Positions 4,085 through 58,947 of a DNA stretch of 64,000 bases are shown piece after piece; positions within the stretch are counted from its first letter, which is position 1, and each line of letters starts with the position of its first letter. This DNA is from an uncultured Ignavibacteria bacterium (GTDB taxonomy: Bacteria; Bacteroidota; Ignavibacteria; UBA10030; UBA6906): assembly GCA_963701735.1 (NCBI GenBank), contig CAVPBI010000022.1:72604-136603 (forward strand), given 5' to 3'. The position numbers were made by a program, and so were the translations under genes. The notes beneath the pieces were generated by a model, which was given only the letters and a program-made list of their open reading frames with translations, was not told where the DNA came from and ran no database searches.

Positions 4085-4648
4085 TTACTTTCCCTGCGGA
4101 GGAAACTGCTCGAGGATCATCCTGGCGACCTCGTCCGCCTTGGCCTGGCCTTCCACCGGGTCCTTTGGCGGATCAACCGTCCCTTTGCCAACACCGCGCC
4201 AGATCATCTCGAAGGCTTCGCCCTTCTTCTGAATGAAATCGATGAAGATCGAACCCTCGGTGTAATAGCTCACGTCCGTGGTTCCACCCATTCCGCCGTA
4301 CCCTCTGCCGTAACCGCCGTACATTCCTCCGTAGCCGTACCCGTAGGAGGTTACGTTGACCTTGTCCTTCGTGCCGGCATGGACTGCCACGTAGAAGTCC
4401 GGATCCCCGCTCTCGAGCTTGCTGAATCCCTTCGCGGCCAGGGCCTTGTCCACGGCGATCATCGCACGCTTTTGGAGAAGCGGCGCCTTTTCAAGAGCGT
4501 CCTGGGTCCCCTGCATCTTGACCCATTGATAGCTCTTCAATCCGGTGAAGTTGGCCGAAGGATCGTAGTCGGACGTGACCGAGACAGATGAGCATCCCGC
4601 AAGCGCCACCAGCGAGAAACAAAGGAGAACAAACGACATGTGCCTCAT
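4085..4648 (-). CDS. DUF4136-like lipoprotein with a Gly/Tyr-rich low-complexity segment
   Basis: Start at MRHMSFVLLCFSLVALAGCSS (lipobox LAGC). Contains a GYGYGGMYGGYGRGYGGMGG tract. A paralog lies at 56878-57543. Confidence 0.65.
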   Translation of the reverse strand: MRHMSFVLLCFSLVALAGCSSVSVTSDYDPSANFTGLKSYQWVKMQGTQDALEKAPLLQKRAMIAVDKALAAKGFSKLESGDPDFYVAVHAGTKDKVNVTSYGYGYGGMYGGYGRGYGGMGGTTDVSYYTEGSIFIDFIQKKGEAFEMIWRGVGKGTVDPPKDPVEGQAKADEVARMILEQFPPQGK

Positions 4649-4802
4649 AACTGCCTCTATAATAATGGGAATGTGAGAATCTTCGCCTCTATCTACGTAC
4701 GTTCCAGATAGCACTGCCACAATCCACCATAAGGATGAAAGATGGATTACACCCCCCTCCTCCCATGATCGCAACGATGGGCGGCCTGGGGGCGCCGGCA
4801 CG

Positions 4803-6039
4803 TCAGACCTCTTTGGGAACCGTCCTGACCCACGTGCCGAACTGCTTCAACTCCTCCATGCGGCACGACCAGACCAGCTGTCCGTTCCAGACAGTAATAT
4901 CAGGGCAACCGTCGCACATGTTCTGGTAGCCGTTCGGCAGGAAGTCCACCGGCTGGATGATCATGACCGTCTGGTAGTGCAGTTTCTTGAACAGACGCGC
5001 GGGGTTCGTGAGGGCCGAGCGGAAATAGCGACCCGCCGTCTGTCGCATCGGCTTGTCGATCGGGGAGAAGAGCATCATCGATCGCCCCTTCGCCGTCCAT
5101 TTCGGCGACGCGTACGCCAGGTATTTTCCATGGAGCAGATGGTGCCCCGCCTGGACGGCTTCCAGCAGCTTCGGCCCGACATACCCGTAGATCTTCTCCC
5201 TCGTCCCCACCCGTCCCGTCAGCAGCCATTTGAATGTGTCGGCGGCTTCCGAGCCGTTCAGGTATGCGCTGGGGGAAAAGTCGGGGAACCGCTCGCGGAT
5301 CTTCGCCACCACCTCAGGCGCTTTCAGATCGATCTTCCTCTTCCCTTCCTCGCTGTAGTGCAGCTCATCCGTCCGGATCCTGGTCCCGCCGGCGTACCAG
5401 TCGAACGGGAGCTGCGGCACCGCGGCGCGGAACAGGATGAAGACCATCACCTGGACGATGTCGATGTGTTTGGCAGCCCAGTCCACCATCTCCGGAACAT
5501 ACTGGAGCGTGTCCTCATACACCGTCGAATTGAAAGCGCACGAGATGTTGCCCGCCTCGGCAAGCATTTCAGCGTACTGCAGCCGCAGCTCGTTCAGCTC
5601 CAGCTCGTTCTTGTTCTTCCATTTCGGCCGCCCCTGCTTGCTGTCGATATGGAAGGTGAAGCCCATGACCCCCGCCTTCTTGAGCTCCCGGAGAAGCTCC
5701 TTTGTCAACGCGCCGCCGTTCGTGTTGATGATCGCCTTCATGCCGGCGTCGTTGACGGCCCTGACAATCTCGACGATCTCGGGGTGCATGAGAGGGTCGC
5801 CCCCCGCAATGGACACCCCGTCCGCGTTGCGCAGCCGCTTGAACACCTCGAGTCTCCTGCCGCACCACATCCATCGTCTTGTGGCTGTTCGGCACGTTCT
5901 CGCGGTAGCAGCCGTCGCACGCGAGGTTGCAGGCCGACGTGGGTTCAAGCCAGGAAATGGCATTGTCTGGCAGGGACCACGGTAGCCGGTACAGTTTTCG
6001 GTGGTCGAGACCGTTGCTCTGTTGCAGGGGAGCCGTCAT
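4803..6039 (-). CDS. Radical SAM enzyme, HpnH-like (adenosylhopane synthase family); reading frame disrupted near 5855
   Basis: The N-terminal ORF (5569-6060) carries CNLACDGCYREN, a CxxxCxxC motif. The downstream ORF (4803-5963) has VSIAGGDPLMHPEIVEIV, which resembles the HpnH segment VSIAGGEPLLHKEMPEIV. The two frames join at about 5850-5860. Confidence 0.7.
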
Positions 6040-6138
6040 GGATATCCTCGTATCATACATGAATACTGTTGGTGTCGAACTTCATGGCGCCTGCAGCTTC
6101 AGGATGCGTGCCTTCTCGCGCGGCAAACCACAACTAGC

Positions 6139-6669
6139 TCATAGCATGAAGTTGTAGCCGAGCGTGAACGAGAACGCATTGAGGTCCGGATCGAACAGCA
6201 TGTAGCGTACGCCGACCTCGAAGCCGGACTTCTGATATCCGATGCCGATGGGGAGCATGAACCGGCTCGTGTTGCCCTTCGCGCCGGCAACAACGCCCTC
6301 ATAGGTATAGTCGATGAAATACAGCCCGGCTTCCAGGCTCCCGTAGAAACCTTCCGCCAGATACTGCTTCCCGCCCAGGAACAGGCTGAACGCCGCCGGT
6401 TGGATCGACGTGTTCGCCGAGAGATCCTTCGCCGTCCATGCCAGATACCCCGCCGTGGCGGTGAATACCGTCGTGGCGCTGTACCCCATCTGGTACCGGA
6501 TGTTCCCGCCGTATCCGGTCCCGGCGATGTCGCTGAAGTCTCCCATGGGCAACGAAATCTCGAAATTCGCTCCGAGCGAGTGCTTGTTCCACCCCGGCTC
6601 ACCCTGGGCAAAAGCCAGCACGGGGAGGACGATCGCACAGAGAACGAGAGCAACAATGTGTCGCTTCAT
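6139..6669 (-). CDS. Small outer-membrane beta-barrel protein (OmpW/porin-like, PF13505-like)
   Basis: Signal peptide MKRHIVALVLCAIVLPVLAFAQG. Alternating hydrophobic beta-strand pattern. C-terminal …GYNFML. Confidence 0.7.
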   Translation of the reverse strand: MKRHIVALVLCAIVLPVLAFAQGEPGWNKHSLGANFEISLPMGDFSDIAGTGYGGNIRYQMGYSATTVFTATAGYLAWTAKDLSANTSIQPAAFSLFLGGKQYLAEGFYGSLEAGLYFIDYTYEGVVAGAKGNTSRFMLPIGIGYQKSGFEVGVRYMLFDPDLNAFSFTLGYNFML

Positions 6670-6747
6670 GACGATGTCCTTGATTGATGACGTGACGAAT
6701 GGACTTCGCGAGCGTCGTTACGAAGACAACCCGGAAGAATGCGAACG

Positions 6748-7224
6748 CTACTTCTTTTCCCCCGAAGCCTTGGGAACCTTCACCAGGGGCACCTGGTCAA
6801 TGATCTGCGCGTCGACCAGCGTCAGCATCTGATTTTCCACCTGGAGAAATCGTGCGGCTGTCACTGTTCCCACCGCCTTCGCGGCCTTCTTATAGTACTT
6901 CTCCAGCAGATCGTTTCTGTCGTTGGCGATGCTGAAGGACTCCTTGACGAGCTCCTCGGCCATCTTCTCGTCAATCTTGTCGTAGTTGGCGGCATATTTC
7001 TTGATCACCGCCATCCGCCTGTCGCCCAGCTTGCTCAACTCAACATCATATTCGCGGTAGATCGGCCAGAAAGCGTCAGCCTGCGCCTGCGTCATCGGGA
7101 CCGACGCCGTTATGATCGCCACCTTCTGGGTCTTGAGATCCTGACGGAGCAACTCAAAAGTATTTTCCTGCGCAAAGGCGGTGGCAGTGATCGATAGCAG
7201 TGCTGCAATAAGAAGTGATCTCAT
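6748..7224 (-). CDS. Periplasmic LTXXQ/Spy-CpxP-like protein (paralog A)
   Basis: Signal peptide MRSLLIAALLSITATAFAQE. Contains MTQAQADAFWPIYREY. Clear paralogy to ORF 57627-58025 (FWPLYREY…; both share a C-terminal …RFxQxE). Confidence 0.6.
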   Translation of the reverse strand: MRSLLIAALLSITATAFAQENTFELLRQDLKTQKVAIITASVPMTQAQADAFWPIYREYDVELSKLGDRRMAVIKKYAANYDKIDEKMAEELVKESFSIANDRNDLLEKYYKKAAKAVGTVTAARFLQVENQMLTLVDAQIIDQVPLVKVPKASGEKK

Positions 7225-8072
7225 CCGTTTCTCCGTACTGTTATGTGTGAATGATTCGACGAGTCAATACCTGCTCTGAGACTGTCGCTCTTCCTCAAGG
7301 TGATTATGCGAAACAGCCGGCGACGGTCGCTCTCGAAGTGATACACCTTCGCCACCTCGATCCGCCTGGCCAGGAAACTGAAGACCGCGACCCCTGCGAG
7401 CACGCCGATGAGCGGGCCTGCCCAGTAGATCCACCACCCATTCCACTGTCAGGATATGACTGCAGGGCCGAGGCTGCGGGCAAAATTTGTGCTGGTCCCC
7501 GATACAGGCGACTCGGCATGCACCATGATGGCGTACAAGAACGGAAACAGCGCAGGGGTATACGGGCGAAGCGTTCGAAATCCAAGAAATATACACAATC
7601 CGGCAATCAATAAGAAGGTGGTAATCGCCTCTCCCATCAACACTTCCGCGGTGGTGTAACCCCCGCCCGGCAATGTCGCCCCGAACGCCACGCTCTGTCC
7701 CATCGATCCCCACAAAAGGAGCGGGACTGACCCTATGATCGCGCCCGCCAGTTGGGCGAGGATATAGCGAATGGCGGTCCGGGATCCCATCTTGCCCATC
7801 ATCCAGAATCCGAATGTCACCACCGGGTTGATGTGCGCTCCGCTTTCCTTTCCGACGGGTGAAATTGCGATCAGCGCGCCCGTAGTGCCGAACAGGAAGC
7901 CGGTGATCAGCCGGCGCAAACCTTCACTGGGTATTGCCTGTGCCCCGGGGCTGCCGGTTCCAAACATCAGAATCACCACCGTCAGCCCGACAAGTACCAA
8001 CAACCCCGTACCCACCAGCTCTGATAGCAGTGGCTGCCAGGGAACCTGCTGGATCTTCTTCTCGCTGATCAT
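7221..8072 (-). CDS. Aquaporin (MIP family) interrupted by an in-frame TGA at 7446-7448
   Basis: SGAHINPVVTFG (NPV variant of NPA box 1) and STNFARSLGPAV (NFA variant of box 2). After the TGA the same frame continues as QWNGWWIYWAGPLIGVLAGVAVFSFLA, a typical aquaporin C-terminus. The true C-terminal end is uncertain. Confidence 0.75.
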
Positions 8073-54250: not shown

Positions 54251-54458
54251 GATAACGGCTGCCGCCCGGATTGTCAAGCCCGGAGAGCCCCACCCCCTTT
54301 CGAACAGGCATTCGTTGCCTCACGTAAGGTTCTACGCCGAAGGCGACCCTGACAGGCGATGGTGTTGCGCAACCGCATGAAATTCAATATGTTGCACGTT
54401 ATATAGACACCGCCCCGCGGTGCGGGGGCCAGACCGACACCACCACTCAGGAGGGAGC

Positions 54459-55007
54459 ATGAAACGGGCAGCTCTTCTCGCGCTCGCGATCGGCATCATG
54501 GGCATTCAGCAGTCGACCGCTCAGTTCAGCGTAGGCATTCTCGGAGGGTACGGGTTCAGCGATGGCTACAAGATCGGGTTCGGTGCCCGGGCAGGTTTCT
54601 CGGCAAGCCTCCTGTATGTCGGCGCCATCGGCGTCATCCACACCGGACAGGAAGATGACATCACATCGGCTGCGCAATCGATCAACGTCAAAACCAACGC
54701 GTCCTACTACGGGGCCGAAATCGGGGTGAACATCGGGACCCTGCGCCCCTCACTTATCCTGGGGGCTGTGAACTTCAAGATCGAGGCGGGTCAGGAAACC
54801 AGCGAGGCAAAGTTCCTGCTCGGCCCGGGCGTCACGCTCTTCCTCCCGCTCTCCGAGAACCTGTTCATCGGCGGAGATGCGCGCCTGCTCATCGTCGGCA
54901 AGGACGATGCCCTGGACGTGGACAGCATCAACCAGATCGAGTCGAACTACAACAACCCGAGCGGAACGCTGGTCGCACTCTACGCGACGATCGGCTACAC
55001 GTTCTAG
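54459..55007 (+). CDS. Outer-membrane beta-barrel protein
   Basis: Signal MKRAALLALAIGIMGIQQSTAQ. Terminal …ATIGYTF with an aromatic C-terminus. Confidence 0.65.
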   Translation: MKRAALLALAIGIMGIQQSTAQFSVGILGGYGFSDGYKIGFGARAGFSASLLYVGAIGVIHTGQEDDITSAAQSINVKTNASYYGAEIGVNIGTLRPSLILGAVNFKIEAGQETSEAKFLLGPGVTLFLPLSENLFIGGDARLLIVGKDDALDVDSINQIESNYNNPSGTLVALYATIGYTF

Positions 55008-55203: not shown

Positions 55204-55870
55204 TCACGGAGCGGAAAACCCGAACGAGAGACCGACGGTCAACGTGAAGAACTGACTCGCGGCAACATAGATGTCCCCCGGAATCTCGGCCTCTCCGGAG
55301 TTCTTCACGTAATGGTAGCGCAGCGCGAAGTCGAGCGACTTCTCTGTGTCCAGAGGAACCAGCATGCCAACGCCAAGGTTGAGGCCAGGCTCCACCCTGA
55401 ACGAGGAGCTGGACGAAACCTGGATGAGCGTGCCGTCCGGGTACGTGTACGTCCCCCCGTCAAACTTCTTCGAATACAGGTACACCCCGGCCTCCAGGAT
55501 CCCGTACGGTCTCGTCTCAGGCTTCGACGAAACCAGCTTGAGCCCAACGAGGATCGGAAATGCAGAAACGGCTCCGCCGACACTGTACTGCCCCCCATAC
55601 GGATTTGAATTCTGATCGTCGTTGAGCGCCTGGTTGTCGAGCCCGGTCCTGTAATACCCGAACCCGAGGTGATACCGGATATCCTCTCCTCCGCTCATCG
55701 AGAATCCCAGATTGAGGGCGAGCCCGGTCTTGTAGTAGGTGCCGAACGAGGCGGTCGGCATCATGACCCCCGCCGACACATCGGTGGTATATCGCAGTCT
55801 GTGCCACCGTGAAGGCGGTGGACAATGCAAAAAGCAGCGGCAGAAGCAAGAAAACCAAACGCGATTTCAT
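55204..55870 (-). CDS. Outer-membrane beta-barrel protein; frame disrupted near 55790
   Basis: Signal MKSRLVFLLLPLLFALSTAFTVAQ is in ORF 55517-55870. The barrel body …GLSFGFSAP is in ORF 55204-55830. Confidence 0.5.
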
Positions 55871-56205
55871 GGCGCGGGTTGATCCACAGAGTGGCTGTAC
55901 ATGATTGACGCCGAAATAACAGGAAAGGCAGTTCCAGATGCAATAACCGGGGCCTCTGCCTGGCCCTCGTTCCGCTTCTTGCCGTCACGATGCTTCCGCC
56001 CATCATTGCGGTCCCCGGCCCGGAACACGGCGCTTCAGGCGCGCGAGGATCCCCAGCATCGACGAGCATGCGTTCCTGCCGTGACGTAGTATCGTCCTTC
56101 TGCCGGCGCATCGCCTCTCCGAAATCAGACAGTACCGCCCCCAAAAAGCAAAGCCCCCCGGGGTTGCCGGAGGGCTTGTGCGATGACCGTCGTATGATGG
56201 CCGAA

Positions 56206-56823
56206 CTAAAACCAGCCCTGCATCCAGGAGATTCCGATGTTGACGCCCCAGTACGAGAAGGAGTTATCATCCTTCCCCCCGAGCGTTGTTCCCGAATCGA
56301 ATGCGTAGTTGTACCGCACCGTTCCCGTCAGGTATGTGCCGCGCGATATGCCTATCAGGAGGCCGGCCTCCGGCGCCAGGCCGAAATGCCAGTTGTCGTT
56401 GTCGAAGGAATACACCCCGATCTCGAGCCGCTGCAGGATGTAGTACGTTCCGACATTCAGTCCGAAGAACGGCCGGAAGTCGTCAGCCTTGTGCCCGAGA
56501 TAGTAGTGGGCGTTAAGGAACAGCGGAAACGAATTCACATACCGCACCTGGGTTCCCGACACAGCTCCGTTGTTCAGCTGAATTGTCTGATTGTTGAGCT
56601 CGCTCCAGACGTTCCACGAGAACGAGCCGCCGAACGTCACGTTCTCGTTCGTGAAGCGCTTGAACTCGACCCCGAACCCGCTGAGGCTTGTCTCCTCGAG
56701 GAAGTTCCCCATGCGGCCGCTCGGGAACCCAATGTTCCAGGTGATCCCGCTCAACAGTTGTTTCTGCGCGCTTGCCGTAGTGGTGAGCAACACGACGGCG
56801 GCGATGATTGCGAGGATTCTCAT
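56206..56823 (-). CDS. Outer-membrane beta-barrel protein
   Basis: Start MRILAIIAAVVLLTTTASAQ. C-terminal …GISWMQGWF. It is read through in-frame from the upstream DUF4136 ORF in the supplied track. Confidence 0.65.
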   Translation of the reverse strand: MRILAIIAAVVLLTTTASAQKQLLSGITWNIGFPSGRMGNFLEETSLSGFGVEFKRFTNENVTFGGSFSWNVWSELNNQTIQLNNGAVSGTQVRYVNSFPLFLNAHYYLGHKADDFRPFFGLNVGTYYILQRLEIGVYSFDNDNWHFGLAPEAGLLIGISRGTYLTGTVRYNYAFDSGTTLGGKDDNSFSYWGVNIGISWMQGWF

Positions 56824-56877
56824 ATATGCTCCAGTCTTCATGCCTGTGGTTGCGCCGCCGGCTACTGACCAGCGTAC

Positions 56878-57543
56878 AGATAGGGTGACTGTATGAACAG
56901 CTTGATTAATGTTGTTGCTGAGCCGGGTCTGGACCGAGGCCGGCGTGTCGCCTGTCAGGCCCGAGACTGTCCCCGACCAGACAGACCGGATCTTCTGCTC
57001 GGAGATTGTCCGGCCGTAATCCACCATGTCGATGAGCGTGGTCCCCGTCGAATACTCGTAGCTGCCGCCATACACAGGCGGGTAGTAGGGATAATACCAT
57101 CCGTACCATCCACCGTACCACCCATACCAGTAATCGTAGTAGTATCCGGTGTACTCGATCGCAAACTGACCGATCGCGACCACGAACACCGAGTCGCGGT
57201 CGATGCCCCGAATGCCGATCTGCGACGTATCGGTGAGCCGCTCGTACCCGCGCGCGATAAAGTTGCTCGCGACAAGCGACAGGACCTGCTTGTCATACTT
57301 CCTCCCACCGGAGATCGGGTCGGTCTTCGTGGTATCGTAGATATGCACAATGGTGTCGCGCATCACGAAGTACTTGAACTTCGCGAAGCTGACCTCCTTG
57401 TCGTACAGCGTCAACGCGGTATCATAGTCCTGGTAGCCCAGGTTGTAATCCTCGTAGCATGCGCTCACACCCAGCACAAGCGCGAGGGCCACCGCGGGGA
57501 CGATCCACGTCCGAAAGCCTGTCAGGCGCCGGATTGTCTGCAT
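56878..57543 (-). CDS. DUF4136-like lipoprotein with Tyr/Trp/Gly-rich tract (paralog of 4085-4648); its stop is probably lost by a frame error
   Basis: MQTIRRLTGFRTWIVPAVALALVLGVSAC lipobox, then …YTGYYYDYWYGWYGGWYGWYYPYYPPVYGG…. No in-frame stop occurs before the next gene. Confidence 0.55.
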
Positions 57544-57626
57544 ACTTCCTCCTGATTCATTCACAGCGATTCGTGTTCGATACCAAGCATTACTTCATCA
57601 GCGGGAGCTCGGACGACACCTTCAGG

Positions 57627-58102
57627 TCAAGAATATCCGTGATGACACCGCTCGAGCTGGAAAAATCTTCCCGCATCCTTCGCGCCGATCGCCCGCGACA
57701 TCTTCTTGAAGTATTCCCGGCGCAGATCGATCAGCTCTTCCCGGTTGTCGAAGCTCTGCTGCATCATGTCGTATGCGTCGTCGTCGGTCAGGGTGGAGTA
57801 CTTCTGGGAGTACTCCTTCAGCACGTCGACCGCCTTATTGCCGATCAGCGACTGCTTGTAGTCGTATTCGCGGTACAGCGGCCAGAACGCGGCGGAATCC
57901 TCGGGGGAGAGGCCGAGCGATTGATCGTAGAGCTCGACCTTGCCGGTGCGCAGGTCGGTCCGGAGCATTTCGATGTACTTGTCGACCTGGGCCTGCGTTG
58001 ATACCGACGTTTGTGCCGATGCCAATTCGGGCGCGAAAAAAGTGACAGCGAGAATAACGGAGAAATACTATGCGATGCATGGGAGGTTCCTTCTTGAATC
58101 AC
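57627..58102 (-). CDS. Periplasmic LTXXQ/Spy-CpxP-like protein (paralog B); frame disrupted in a T6 run near 58040
   Basis: …LSPEDSAAFWPLYREYDYKQS…GRFFQLE parallels 6748-7224. A putative signal peptide is encoded in a neighbouring frame upstream. Confidence 0.5.
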
Positions 58103-58735
58103 TTAGATGACAATGATGAGTCCTGCGCTGAGATCGCCCTGGAGAATCGGGACACCGGCGCCCACACTCACGCCCGCACCACCCGTACCCACGTAGAAAC
58201 CGCCGCCGGAGACGTACAGGGGCATGAGCAACCGGCCCTGGAGCCTCAACCCGAGCTTCTCCGAAAGGTAGATCTTCACGCCGCCCGAGAAATTCATTGC
58301 GGCGTAGATGTTTGTCTCATACTTGGTGTCTTCGGGGCTGAACATGACGATACCGGCGCCCGCACCCAGGAACGGCTTGGTCTTGCCCCGCCCGGTCTCC
58401 TAGACTGCGTTCAGCTGAAAGTAGTGCGTTCCGAGGTCGGTCGACCGACCGATCAGGTCGGGGTCAACGGTGGTAAGATAATAGGGCTCGAACTCGGCAC
58501 GCGAAGGGAGGTAGCTCCAGAAGAATTCGACCACCAGCTCCTTCTGGACGCGGTACCCAAGGATCAGTCCGTACTGGGCACCATCGTCCACGACAATCTC
58601 TCCCTCGTAGCCCTGAACCGACCCGCCCCACTGATATCCGAATGTCGGGGTGATTTCAATTGCCCCCTTCTGTGAAAATGCCGGCTGGGTGAGGCCGAGC
58701 AGGAGCAACCCTACGACGGGAATCGCCCGTCTCAT
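58103..58735 (-). CDS. Outer-membrane beta-barrel protein interrupted by a single in-frame TAG (58397-58399)
   Basis: Signal MRRAIPVVGLLLLGLTQPAFSQ. ORFs 58400-58801 and 58103-58345 are in the same frame and separated by one amber codon: …QLNAV*ETGRGKTKPFLGAGAGIVMF…. Confidence 0.5.
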
Positions 58736-58947
58736 TCCGCGTGTTAAGTTCATCAGTCCTCCAGGATTATTCTGCATCAGGCAAGCGGATAAGGGTAACA
58801 AGAAAACCCTGCAAAATCAAGGGATTCTTTGCCATCCCGGGAGCATGGCCCTCGCCAGGAACTCCCATGGAATCATCCGGATGAGGTCTGCCAATCTCGT
58901 GTGAACTGGGAAAAAGACCAGCCAGGATACGAACGCCCGGGAGAAGC

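What the first reader, a model, noticed from the sequence alone, without database searches (positions are those of the whole stretch)
4085..7224. Duplicated three-gene envelope module (LTXXQ-like periplasmic protein + OM beta-barrel + DUF4136 Gly/Tyr-rich lipoprotein) present twice in the window (4.1-7.2 kb and 56.2-58.1 kb)
Both loci contain clear paralogs of all three components on the minus strand: periplasmic proteins 6748-7224 versus 57627-58102 (FWP[IL]YREY…RF.Q.E); DUF4136 lipoproteins 4085-4648 versus 56878-57543, both with aromatic/Gly-rich tracts; and small OM barrels 6139-6669 versus 56206-56823. Conserved linkage of three paralogous families implies a functional unit, for example a periplasmic chaperone or stress sensor with its lipoprotein/porin partners. 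This unit has not been characterised.
Basis: seen in the sequence. Interest (0 to 1): 0.5.

Follow-up and report, generated by a model that had tools for sequence, protein, structure and literature searches.

The report
Conserved uncharacterised outer-membrane gene cluster
The window holds two versions of a widespread gene cluster of unknown function, made of an outer-membrane lipoprotein, a small outer-membrane barrel and a secreted helical protein; the parts are clearly linked in many bacterial phyla, but the two copies are old, different subtypes and not a simple duplication.

Summary
Both loci exist, on the minus strand. Each encodes a secreted four-helix protein (here "Per"), a DUF4136 lipoprotein and a small outer-membrane (OM) barrel. 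Only the Per pair are clear paralogues (36% identity, E 1e-26). The two DUF4136 proteins belong to different subfamilies: BLASTP finds nothing, profile comparison gives E 6e-21. The barrels are barely related (E 2e-4 without signal peptides).

Locus A is interrupted by a radical SAM gene. Locus B is really barC-PerB-DUF4136-barB-barB'. The window carries single-base frameshifts there that intact orthologues lack.

The linkage is real:
- In 52 of 52 barrel-anchored metagenome loci, a DUF4136 gene sits directly upstream (median gap 37 nt).
- All 69 type-2 DUF4136 genes are followed by this barrel; none of 29 type-1 genes is.
- Per directly flanks the pair in 10 of 21 loci with room.
- 46 of 68 Per genes abut an OM-protein gene.

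Per matches no Pfam LTXXQ or Metal_resist model; only a weak fold resemblance to CnrX remains. The DUF4136 model resembles PelC, TraT, CsgG and LptE, which are OM lipoproteins that work with or as barrels.

Best reading: an uncharacterised lipoprotein-barrel OM complex with a periplasmic accessory protein. Its function is unproven, and I rate it moderately interesting.

The parts
6748..7224 (-). PerA: secreted four-helix protein of a large family with no Pfam model (FWPxYRxY ... RFxQxE motifs)
   Evidence: The ORF is intact. No Pfam, NCBIfam or PDB sequence hit. More than 1036 homologues and 7779 50%-identity clusters. AF2 model pLDDT 83: a signal peptide plus helices 20-41, 46-79, 86-118 and 120-142.
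6139..6669 (-). barA: small putative OM beta-barrel (176 aa) that travels with PerA orthologues
   Evidence: Signal peptide ending AFAQ|G; no Pfam hit. It lies next to Per in all PerA orthologues of at least 54% identity, except L011 (type-1 DUF4136 only, in a frameshifted region) (L004-L010, L012). Only weakly related to barB.
4803..6060 (-). Radical SAM gene inserted in locus A, split by a frameshift near 5852 in the window
   Evidence: PF04055 E 3e-11. CxxxCxxC motif CNLACDGC. Intact at 411 aa in the 92% relative L001/L004. No NCBIfam subfamily reaches its cutoff. It recurs near the module in L008, L011, L035, L116, L128, L132 and L138.
4085..4648 (-). DUF4136 lipoprotein, type 1 (lipobox LAGC, C-terminus ...FPPQGK), with the Gly/Tyr tract SYGYGYGGMYGGYGRGYGGMGG
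58103..58801 (-). barC: small OM barrel directly upstream of PerB, frameshifted in the window
   Evidence: Both halves (58103-58345 and 58400-58801) hit the barC profile. The intact 217-aa orthologue in L166 carries PF13505. barC is adjacent to Per in six other loci.
57590..58080 (-). PerB: paralogue of PerA, with two single-base insertions in the window (about 58060 and 57647)
   Evidence: 36% identical to PerA, E 1e-26. Frames reconstructed. Intact 162-aa orthologues exist in L086 and L166, and its 90%-identity cluster holds 21 members, the 15 listed all 162 aa.
56862..57543 (-). DUF4136 lipoprotein, type 2 (lipobox VSAC|Y, C-terminus NQ..QSPYLYAGQ), with the Trp/Tyr/Gly tract YTGYYYDYWYGWYGGWYGWYYPYYPP; an insertion at about 56903 fuses it to barB in the window
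   Evidence: PF13590 E 3.3e-14. Frameshift located. Subtype. The PDB entry 4F54 (BT2437) is of the same subtype.
56206..56841 (-). barB: small OM beta-barrel (OmpW/AlkL-like size), the obligate downstream partner of type-2 DUF4136
   Evidence: PF13505 matches along the full length but below threshold (24.8 bits against 28.7). Faint OmpW and AlkL hits. The protein ends in ...GWF. DUF4136 lies directly upstream in 52 of 52 loci.
56151..56177 (-). Terminator-like hairpin (11-bp stem, 8 GC pairs, then a T-run) just after barB
   Evidence: It lies in the 177-nt gap between barB and barB' that is also seen in L166.
55204..55870 (-). barB': second barB-like barrel downstream, frameshifted in the window
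   Evidence: It hits the barB profile (E 3e-31) and the barA profile (E 4e-17). Intact 221-aa orthologues exist in L086 and L166.

Best explanation
The two loci are two variants of one widespread, uncharacterised outer-membrane (OM) gene cluster.

Its fixed core is a type-2 DUF4136 lipoprotein, followed within about 40 nt by a small OmpW-sized beta-barrel (barB). The variable additions are:
- a secreted four-helix protein (Per);
- a second DUF4136 subtype (type 1);
- further small barrels (barA, barC).

I propose that the lipoprotein and its barrel form a complex in the OM. The lipoprotein has the PelC/LptE/CsgG/TraT-type alpha/beta fold, with a long hairpin tipped by a Gly/Trp/Tyr-rich loop. 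I propose that Per works in the periplasm as an escort or adaptor for these OM components.

Shown: the gene linkage, family memberships, export signals and fold resemblances. Inferred: physical contact between lipoprotein and barrel, the role of Per, and any substrate.

The stated confidence is for the model as a whole. I am more confident that this is a functional OM unit (about 0.75) than in the specific complex-plus-escort mechanism (about 0.35).
For: Linkage, anchored on the barrel (metagenome contigs):
- 52 of 52 loci with at least 750 nt of upstream sequence have DUF4136 directly upstream. The median gap is 37 nt and three pairs overlap.
- 55 of 55 type-2 DUF4136 genes in that set, and 14 of 14 in the Per-anchored set, are followed by barB. 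None of 29 type-1 genes is.
- Per directly flanks the pair in 10 of 21 loci with room, and is somewhere in the locus in 14 of 21.

Linkage, anchored on Per (genome contigs):
- DUF4136 lies within 1.5 kb in 15 of 55 Per genes.
- 46 of 68 Per genes have an adjacent gene for a Gly-zipper protein, a small barrel, a DUF4136 protein or a short Omp85.
- Gene order varies (DUF-bar-Per, Per-DUF-bar, DUF-Per), and the carriers are labelled Ignavibacteriota, Gemmatimonadota, Acidobacteriota, KSB1 and Calditrichota.

Other support:
- Bacteroides thetaiotaomicron BT2437 (PDB 4F54, type 2) carries the locus tag next to BT_2438, an OMP_b-brl protein (PMC8931616).
- The intact orthologous locus L166 reads barC-Per-DUF4136-barB with gaps of 22, 47 and 38 nt. 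A terminator-like hairpin follows barB in the window.
- All products carry Sec signals or lipoprotein signals.
- The Per model is an all-helical hairpin bundle whose best Foldseek hits are the periplasmic protein CnrX.
- Tandem Per-Per fusions exist, which hints at dimers.
- DUF4136 proteins are found in OM vesicle proteomes (PMC12132484).
Against: - No direct evidence of interaction. Complex prediction could not be run.
- Per is absent from about half of the DUF4136-barB loci. It also occurs alone, for example in Halieaceae and Geobacter, so it is not an obligate partner.
- barB is too small (about 185 mature residues) to house a plug as LptD does, or to be a polymer porin like PelB.
- DUF4136 also occurs in unrelated contexts: alone in Flavobacterium and with a two-component system in Burkholderia (PMC5192318).
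- barB and barA do not reach the Pfam OMP_b-brl threshold, and no barrel structure was predicted.
Confidence: 0.5

Rival explanations
1. Per is a general Spy/CpxP/ZraP/CnrX-type periplasmic stress chaperone or signalling inhibitor. Its adjacency to OM-protein genes reflects shared envelope-stress regulation, not a dedicated complex.
For: - Per is periplasmic, about 140 residues when mature, and all-helical.
- Its top Foldseek hits are CnrX chains with probability 0.99.
- The family consensus has one LTxxQ-like stretch that hhalign places on the first LTXXQ motif of Spy.
- It has many different OM-type neighbours (Gly-zipper proteins, barrels, lipoproteins), as expected of a generalist.
- It occurs alone in many genomes.
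- Tandem fusions fit a dimeric protein.
Against: - 0 of 55 members match LTXXQ or Metal_resist at E <= 1.
- A profile search of the PDB finds no family member.
- hhalign probability is 0.3% against Spy and CnrX.
- The invariant residues (R27, K34, F52, P54, Y56, R57, Y59, R125, Q128) are not the Spy/CpxP or CnrX signature, and there are no conserved metal ligands.
- No two-component system or ECF sigma gene recurs next to Per.
Confidence: 0.25
2. The cluster is an export or uptake conduit. DUF4136 forms an oligomeric ring as PelC, CsgG and TraT do. The OmpW/AlkL-like barrel is the channel for a hydrophobic or polymeric substrate. Per is the periplasmic carrier, and the radical SAM enzyme makes or modifies the cargo in some lineages.
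For: - barB has faint AlkL and OmpW hits.
- The radical SAM gene recurs near the module in at least eight loci from two independent anchors.
- The long hairpin has a disordered Gly/aromatic tip, comparable to the membrane-inserting hairpins of CsgG. That comparison is from my own knowledge of CsgG; the model is.
Against: - No biosynthetic, ABC or inner-membrane partner genes recur.
- The radical SAM gene is present in only a minority of loci.
- The oligomeric state is untested.
- The AlkL and OmpW hits are not significant (E 0.037 and 0.56).
Confidence: 0.12
3. The genes form an OM-protein gene island with no functional relationship between them. They cluster only through shared expression or genome organisation.
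For: - Many different envelope genes lie nearby, and gene order varies.
- Per is dispensable for many DUF4136-barB pairs.
Against: - The 52 of 52 and 69 of 69 adjacency of type-2 DUF4136 with barB, in a fixed order and with gaps of about 37 nt across phyla, is not what loose clustering gives.
- PerA orthologues keep barA as neighbour down to 54% identity, L011 excepted.
Confidence: 0.08
4. Locus B is a decaying copy: real pseudogenes left over after a duplication of locus A.
For: There are five frameshifts within about 3.6 kb of locus B in the window.
Against: - Orthologues at 88-93% identity (L086, L166) are intact, and the 15 listed members of the 21-member PerB cluster are all 162 aa.
- Uncompensated single-base indels also occur elsewhere in the window relative to its relative L004, including in the radical SAM gene. 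The relatives come from a long-read metagenome project, so assembly error is the simpler reading.
- The two loci hold different subfamilies, not copies.
Confidence: 0.05

Closest known systems
BT2437 (PDB 4F54, DUF4136) and BT_2438 (OMP_b-brl protein) of Bacteroides thetaiotaomicron
   Same: The DUF4136 profile hits 4F54 at E 2.4e-20. 4F54 has the type-2 C-terminus (FTQSPYLTN) and a Trp/Gly-rich tract (PMC8748493). The neighbouring locus tag encodes an OMP_b-brl protein (PMC8931616). This is probably the same lipoprotein-barrel pair.
   Different: No function is known for it. BT2437 is reported only as a gut IgA target (PMC6831775). I could not read the B. thetaiotaomicron genome, so I did not verify homology of BT_2438 to barB, their spacing, or whether a Per gene is present.
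PelC-PelB (Pel exopolysaccharide export)
   Different: PelB is a large TPR-plus-porin protein and is encoded with pel biosynthesis genes; none are present here. PelC has no Gly/aromatic tract. The dodecamer ring was not tested. Sequence identity is 13-14%.
LptE-LptD, CsgG(-CsgE/F) and TraT
   Different: barB is far too small for a plug-and-barrel arrangement. No curli, LPS-transport or conjugation genes lie nearby. The resemblance is in fold only.
Spy/CpxP/ZraP/CnrX periplasmic helical proteins (Pfam LTXXQ PF07813, Metal_resist PF13801)
   Same: They match Per in compartment, size and all-helical hairpin architecture. CnrX chains are the top Foldseek hits (TM 0.47 by query, 0.65 by target). 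The Per family consensus has one LTxxQ-like stretch.
   Different: There is no HMM or profile match, no second LTXXQ motif and no metal ligands. The invariant motif is different (FWPxYRxY). No linked two-component system or ECF sigma system recurs.
OmpW/AlkL and Pfam OMP_b-brl (PF13505) small barrels
   Same: barB has a signal peptide, about 185 mature residues and a C-terminal aromatic residue. It aligns along the full length of PF13505 (E 2.9e-5). The intact barC orthologue carries PF13505.
   Different: The scores are below the Pfam gathering threshold. barA has no hit at all. The AlkL and OmpW hits are not significant.

Membership tests
Pfam DUF4136 (PF13590) | HMM score above the gathering threshold (32.8 bits) over the whole domain | tested here: met
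   Locus A scores 118.2 bits (residues 24-184 on model positions 1-152). Locus B scores 54.0 bits (52-222 on 3-146).
Pfam DUF4136 (PF13590) | Bacterial lipoprotein signal (lipobox with Cys) | tested here: met
   LVALAGC|S in A and LGVSAC|Y in B. The Cys is nearly invariant in alignment A3. Some Acidobacteriota members lack it.
Spy/CpxP (Pfam LTXXQ PF07813) and Metal_resist PF13801 | Match to the family HMM | tested here: not met
   0 of 55 Per-family members hit either model at E <= 1. PerA and PerB have no hit at E <= 10.
Spy/CpxP (Pfam LTXXQ PF07813) and Metal_resist PF13801 | Two LTXXQ motifs at the helix starts | tested here: not met
   The consensus has one LTEKQ-like stretch, which reads MTQAQ in PerA and LSPED in PerB. 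The second position reads TAARFxQ.
Spy/CpxP (Pfam LTXXQ PF07813) and Metal_resist PF13801 | Hooked helical-hairpin fold shared with solved members | tested here: inconclusive
Pfam OMP_b-brl (PF13505) | HMM score above the gathering threshold (28.7 bits) | tested here: not met
   barB scores 24.8 bits along its full length. barA has no hit. The L015 barC homologue scores 24.9 bits. The intact barC in L166 carries a precomputed PF13505 hit.
Pfam OMP_b-brl (PF13505) | Sec signal peptide and C-terminal aromatic residue typical of OM barrels | tested here: met
   barB has ...TASAQ|K and ends in ...QGWF. barA has ...AFAQ|G but ends in ...NFML.
Radical SAM superfamily (PF04055) | CxxxCxxC cluster motif and HMM match | tested here: met
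   The motif is CNLACDGC. PF04055 E 3.4e-11. No NCBIfam subfamily (NirJ2, Tes, HpnH and others) reaches its cutoff.
PelC-type OM lipoproteins | PelC fold | tested here: inconclusive
PelC-type OM lipoproteins | Dodecameric ring and association with the PelB porin within a pel operon | not testable with these tools
   No multimer prediction was available. No pel genes are in the window or in related loci.

The most novel reading that the evidence does not exclude
DUF4136 lipoproteins are ring-forming OM proteins of the PelC/CsgG/TraT kind. Their Gly/Trp/Tyr hairpins insert into the outer membrane. Together with a dedicated OmpW-like barrel and the Per periplasmic protein they form a previously unrecognised OM transport or assembly machine. 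It would be shared by Bacteroidota/Ignavibacteriota, Gemmatimonadota, Acidobacteriota, KSB1 and Calditrichota, and could be studied in B. thetaiotaomicron through BT2437/BT2438.
Probability: 0.15. Interest if true: 0.75.

Novelty: new variant of a known kind. Interest (0 to 1): 0.4.

Why it matters
- DUF4136 is a widespread lipoprotein family. It has a crystal structure but no known function.
- Per is a very large family (7779 clusters at 50% identity) with no Pfam model.
- A strict lipoprotein-barrel gene pair, with a frequent periplasmic third partner, gives a concrete and testable hypothesis for all three families.
- It points to a genetically tractable organism, B. thetaiotaomicron (BT2437/BT2438), in which to test it.
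- If the pair forms a complex, it would add a new small lipoprotein-barrel unit to the known OM machines, in phyla whose envelopes are poorly studied.
- If not, this remains an ordinary conserved neighbourhood of unknown function.

Tried and rejected
- **Homology search with the fused ORF.** I searched with ORF 56206-57564, hoping to build an unpaired alignment for a pseudo-complex prediction. It returned nothing, because the Trp/Tyr/Gly tract swamped the word index.
- **AFDB fold library.** It was not available.
- **Sequence routes from Per to Spy/CpxP/CnrX.** All were negative: Pfam at E <= 10, all 55 members at E <= 1, NCBIfam, phmmer and hmmsearch against the PDB, and hhalign against Spy and CnrX.
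- **Natural fusions of Per to other domains.** I found only mis-called starts and Per-Per tandems.
- **Promoter and terminator scans.** They gave nothing above background apart from the hairpin after barB.
- **Frameshifts throughout the window.** I first assumed this from overlapping open frames, but Pfam showed most such pairs are separate genes. Direct alignment to L004 and L086 then located the real uncompensated indels.
- **Recent duplication of a three-gene module.** Rejected on subtype, gene order and divergence.
- **Source annotations.** Names such as 'Spy/CpxP family protein refolding chaperone', 'chorismate mutase' and 'phytoene synthetase' are attached to single family members. I treated them as noise.
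Full report
**What is in the window: locus A**

Locus A (minus strand) encodes four genes:
- a 158-aa secreted protein, which I call PerA (6748-7224; signal peptide ...AFAQ|E);
- a 176-aa small barrel candidate, barA (6139-6669);
- a radical SAM enzyme (4803-6060; CNLACDGC motif; split by a frameshift near 5852);
- a DUF4136 lipoprotein (4085-4648; lipobox LAGC; PF13590, E 5.5e-34).

**What is in the window: locus B**

Locus B (minus strand) is disturbed by single-base frameshifts. Reading all three frames and aligning to orthologues gives PerB at 57590-58080, DUF4136-B at 56862-57543 and barB at 56206-56841. A further barrel lies upstream (barC, 58103-58801) and another downstream (barB', 55204-55870).

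An intact version of the whole locus exists on a 1.03-Mb contig of a related genome (L166). It reads barC (217 aa, PF13505), Per (162 aa), DUF4136 (224 aa), barB (205 aa) and barB' (221 aa), with gaps of 22, 47, 38 and 177 nt. A 3.7-kb metagenome contig (L086, 88% DNA identity) is also intact. PerB's 90%-identity cluster has 21 members, and all 15 listed are 162 aa.

The window's insertions at about 58060, 57647 and 56903 are therefore specific to this assembly. Comparable uncompensated indels occur elsewhere in the window relative to its 90-92% relative L004. Assembly error is the simpler reading. A terminator-like hairpin (56151-56177) follows barB.

**How similar are the two loci?**

| Component | Test | Result |
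|---|---|---|
| PerA vs PerB | BLASTP | 36% identity over 107 residues of the mature protein, E 1e-26 |
| DUF4136-A vs -B | BLASTP | no hit |
| DUF4136-A and -B | Pfam PF13590 | both are full-length members |
| DUF4136 type 1 vs type 2 | profile-profile | E 6e-21 over 177 columns |
| Barrels | BLASTP | E 0.09 |
| Barrels | profile-profile, with signal peptides | E 2.8e-7 |
| Barrels | profile-profile, without signal peptides | E 2.4e-4, 43% probability |

An alignment of 28 DUF4136 proteins from related loci separates two subtypes. Type 1 has lipobox GCS and ends in ...FPP; the locus A protein is of this type. Type 2 has lipobox xCY and ends in ...NQAFxQSPYL; the locus B protein is of this type.

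So 'clear paralogs of all three components' holds for one component, distantly for the second, and marginally for the third. Gene order also differs between the loci: Per-bar-rSAM-DUF against Per-DUF-bar.

**Is the linkage conserved? Anchoring on Per**

A scan of one genome per species found at least 545 Per relatives, and I examined 80 loci. I built profile HMMs for each component and scanned the loci's ORFs.

- Of 55 Per genes with at least 3 kb on both sides, 15 have a DUF4136 gene within 1.5 kb and 23 have one within 10 kb.
- The arrangement 'type-2 DUF4136 then barB, with Per beside them' recurs in L003, L015, L025, L027, L036, L038, L047, L056, L065, L066, L068 and L071. In L074, L012 and L033 Per lies 1-5 kb from the pair. 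The carriers are labelled Ignavibacteria, Gemmatimonadota, Vicinamibacterales, KSB1 and Calditrichaceae.
- Several of these loci (L003, L015, L033, L047, L065, L074) carry type 1 and type 2 in the same 20-kb locus (adjacent genes in L003, L033 and L065).
- The two window loci therefore look like a split version of one cluster, not a duplicated one.

**Is the linkage conserved? Anchoring on barB**

I then anchored independently on barB in metagenome contigs, which gave 80 loci.

- All 52 loci with enough upstream sequence have DUF4136 directly upstream. The median gap is 37 nt and three pairs overlap.
- All 55 type-2 genes in this set, and all 14 in the Per-anchored set, are followed by barB. 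None of the 29 type-1 genes is.
- Per directly flanks the pair in 10 of 21 loci with room. In seven it lies upstream of DUF4136 and in three downstream of barB.

**Other regular neighbours of Per**

- PerA orthologues down to 54% identity keep barA as neighbour, L011 excepted.
- In Acidobacteriota, Per is followed by a protein of about 254 aa with a YMGG-type glycine zipper.
- Overall, 46 of 68 Per genes have an adjacent gene for a Gly-zipper protein, a small barrel, a DUF4136 protein or a short Omp85.
- Per also occurs alone, for example in Halieaceae and Geobacter.

**What are the parts? Per**

Per belongs to a very large family with no Pfam, NCBIfam or PDB sequence match. It has more than 1036 close homologues and 7779 clusters at 50% identity.

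Its invariant residues are R27, K34, F52, P54, Y56, R57, Y59, R125 and Q128. The AF2 model (pLDDT 83) shows a signal peptide, four helices and a short tail.

**What are the parts? DUF4136**

A solved structure exists: 4F54, which is BT2437 of B. thetaiotaomicron and is of type 2. It has no assigned function.

**What are the parts? The barrels and the radical SAM enzyme**

barB aligns along the full length of PF13505, just below threshold. It has faint OmpW and AlkL hits. The radical SAM enzyme reaches no named subfamily, but it recurs near the module in at least eight loci.

**What the literature says**

- DUF4136 is mentioned only as a protein of unknown function in a Burkholderia biofilm operon (PMC5192318).
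- It appears in OM vesicle proteomes (PMC12132484).
- It is cited as an example of a Trp-rich low-complexity tract (PMC7004392, PMC8748493).
- BT2437 is a gut IgA target (PMC6831775).
- Its neighbouring locus tag, BT_2438, is an OMP_b-brl protein (PMC8931616).
- Nothing describes the pair or the Per family.

**Interpretation**

The best-supported reading is a dedicated OM unit. A DUF4136 lipoprotein and its small barrel are almost certainly co-expressed and probably form a complex. Per is a frequent periplasmic accessory, acting as an escort or adaptor. The linkage, the export signals and the fold class are shown. The contacts between the proteins and the function are inferred.

The alternatives cannot be excluded with these tools: a general Spy-like chaperone, an export conduit, or a mere gene island. 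The Spy/CpxP membership tests that I could run failed.

**Verdict**

The finding is a genuine, conserved and uncharacterised envelope module. It is of moderate interest and can be tested in B. thetaiotaomicron.

Noticed in passing
window 58060, 57647, 56903, about 55792-55827, 58345-58400, 5852: Single-base insertions break PerB (twice), DUF4136-B, barB', barC and the radical SAM gene. Orthologues in L086, L166 and L004 are intact. These are probably assembly indel errors in a long-read metagenome-assembled genome, but real frameshifts are not excluded.
   Followed up: partly
window 4803-6060; also L004, L008, L011, L035, L116, L128, L132, L138: A 411-aa radical SAM enzyme recurs next to Per/DUF4136/barrel genes in loci found from two independent anchors. 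It has no SPASM domain and reaches no named NCBIfam subfamily. Its role beside exported proteins is unexplained.
   Followed up: partly
window 7449-8072: The MIP/aquaporin gene just upstream of PerA is 207 aa here but 265 aa in the 92% relative (L001 5143-5940). Its reading frame appears to continue in another frame towards about 7290, so it is probably also frameshifted.
   Followed up: no
P0121 (314 aa), P0146 (311 aa): These are natural tandem fusions of two Per domains in one secreted protein, which hints that Per acts as a dimer.
   Followed up: no
L058 10407-11171 and about 23-30 Acidobacteriota loci (e.g. L049, L054, L067, L069, L081): In Acidobacteriota, Per is followed by a protein of about 254 aa with a C-terminal YMGG-type glycine zipper (PF13441, E 5e-9). 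A DUF4136 gene often comes next.
   Followed up: partly
alignment A4 (barB), columns 86-157: The barB profile hits the C-terminal repeats of Clostridioides toxin A and cell-wall-binding repeat proteins at E 3e-6 to 1e-4. This is probably a beta-hairpin and aromatic composition effect, but it is unexplained.
   Followed up: no
alignment A2 (DUF4136), positions 52-133: The DUF4136 profile hits the phage T7 tail tubular/adaptor protein gp11 at E about 0.006 in three distinct PDB sequences. This is unexplained.
   Followed up: no
L003 1752-3086, L047 10475-11641, L071 7622-8719; also L025, L063: Short Omp85-family proteins (365-444 aa) recur within a few kb of Per/DUF4136 clusters.
   Followed up: no
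window 54420-55007 (+): Another small OMP_b-brl-like barrel (PF13505, E 2.4e-5) lies convergent to locus B. The stretch 54.4-58.8 kb therefore carries five small barrel genes. The same layout is seen in L166.
   Followed up: partly
DUF4136 type-2 proteins (window 56862-57543; L015, L027, L038, L074 and others): In type-2 lipoproteins the lipobox Cys is always followed by Tyr and an acidic or Pro-rich stretch (CYEDY, CYRDYG, CYPGD). Together with BT2437 being an IgA target, this raises the possibility of surface exposure in the Bacteroidota sense.
   Followed up: no
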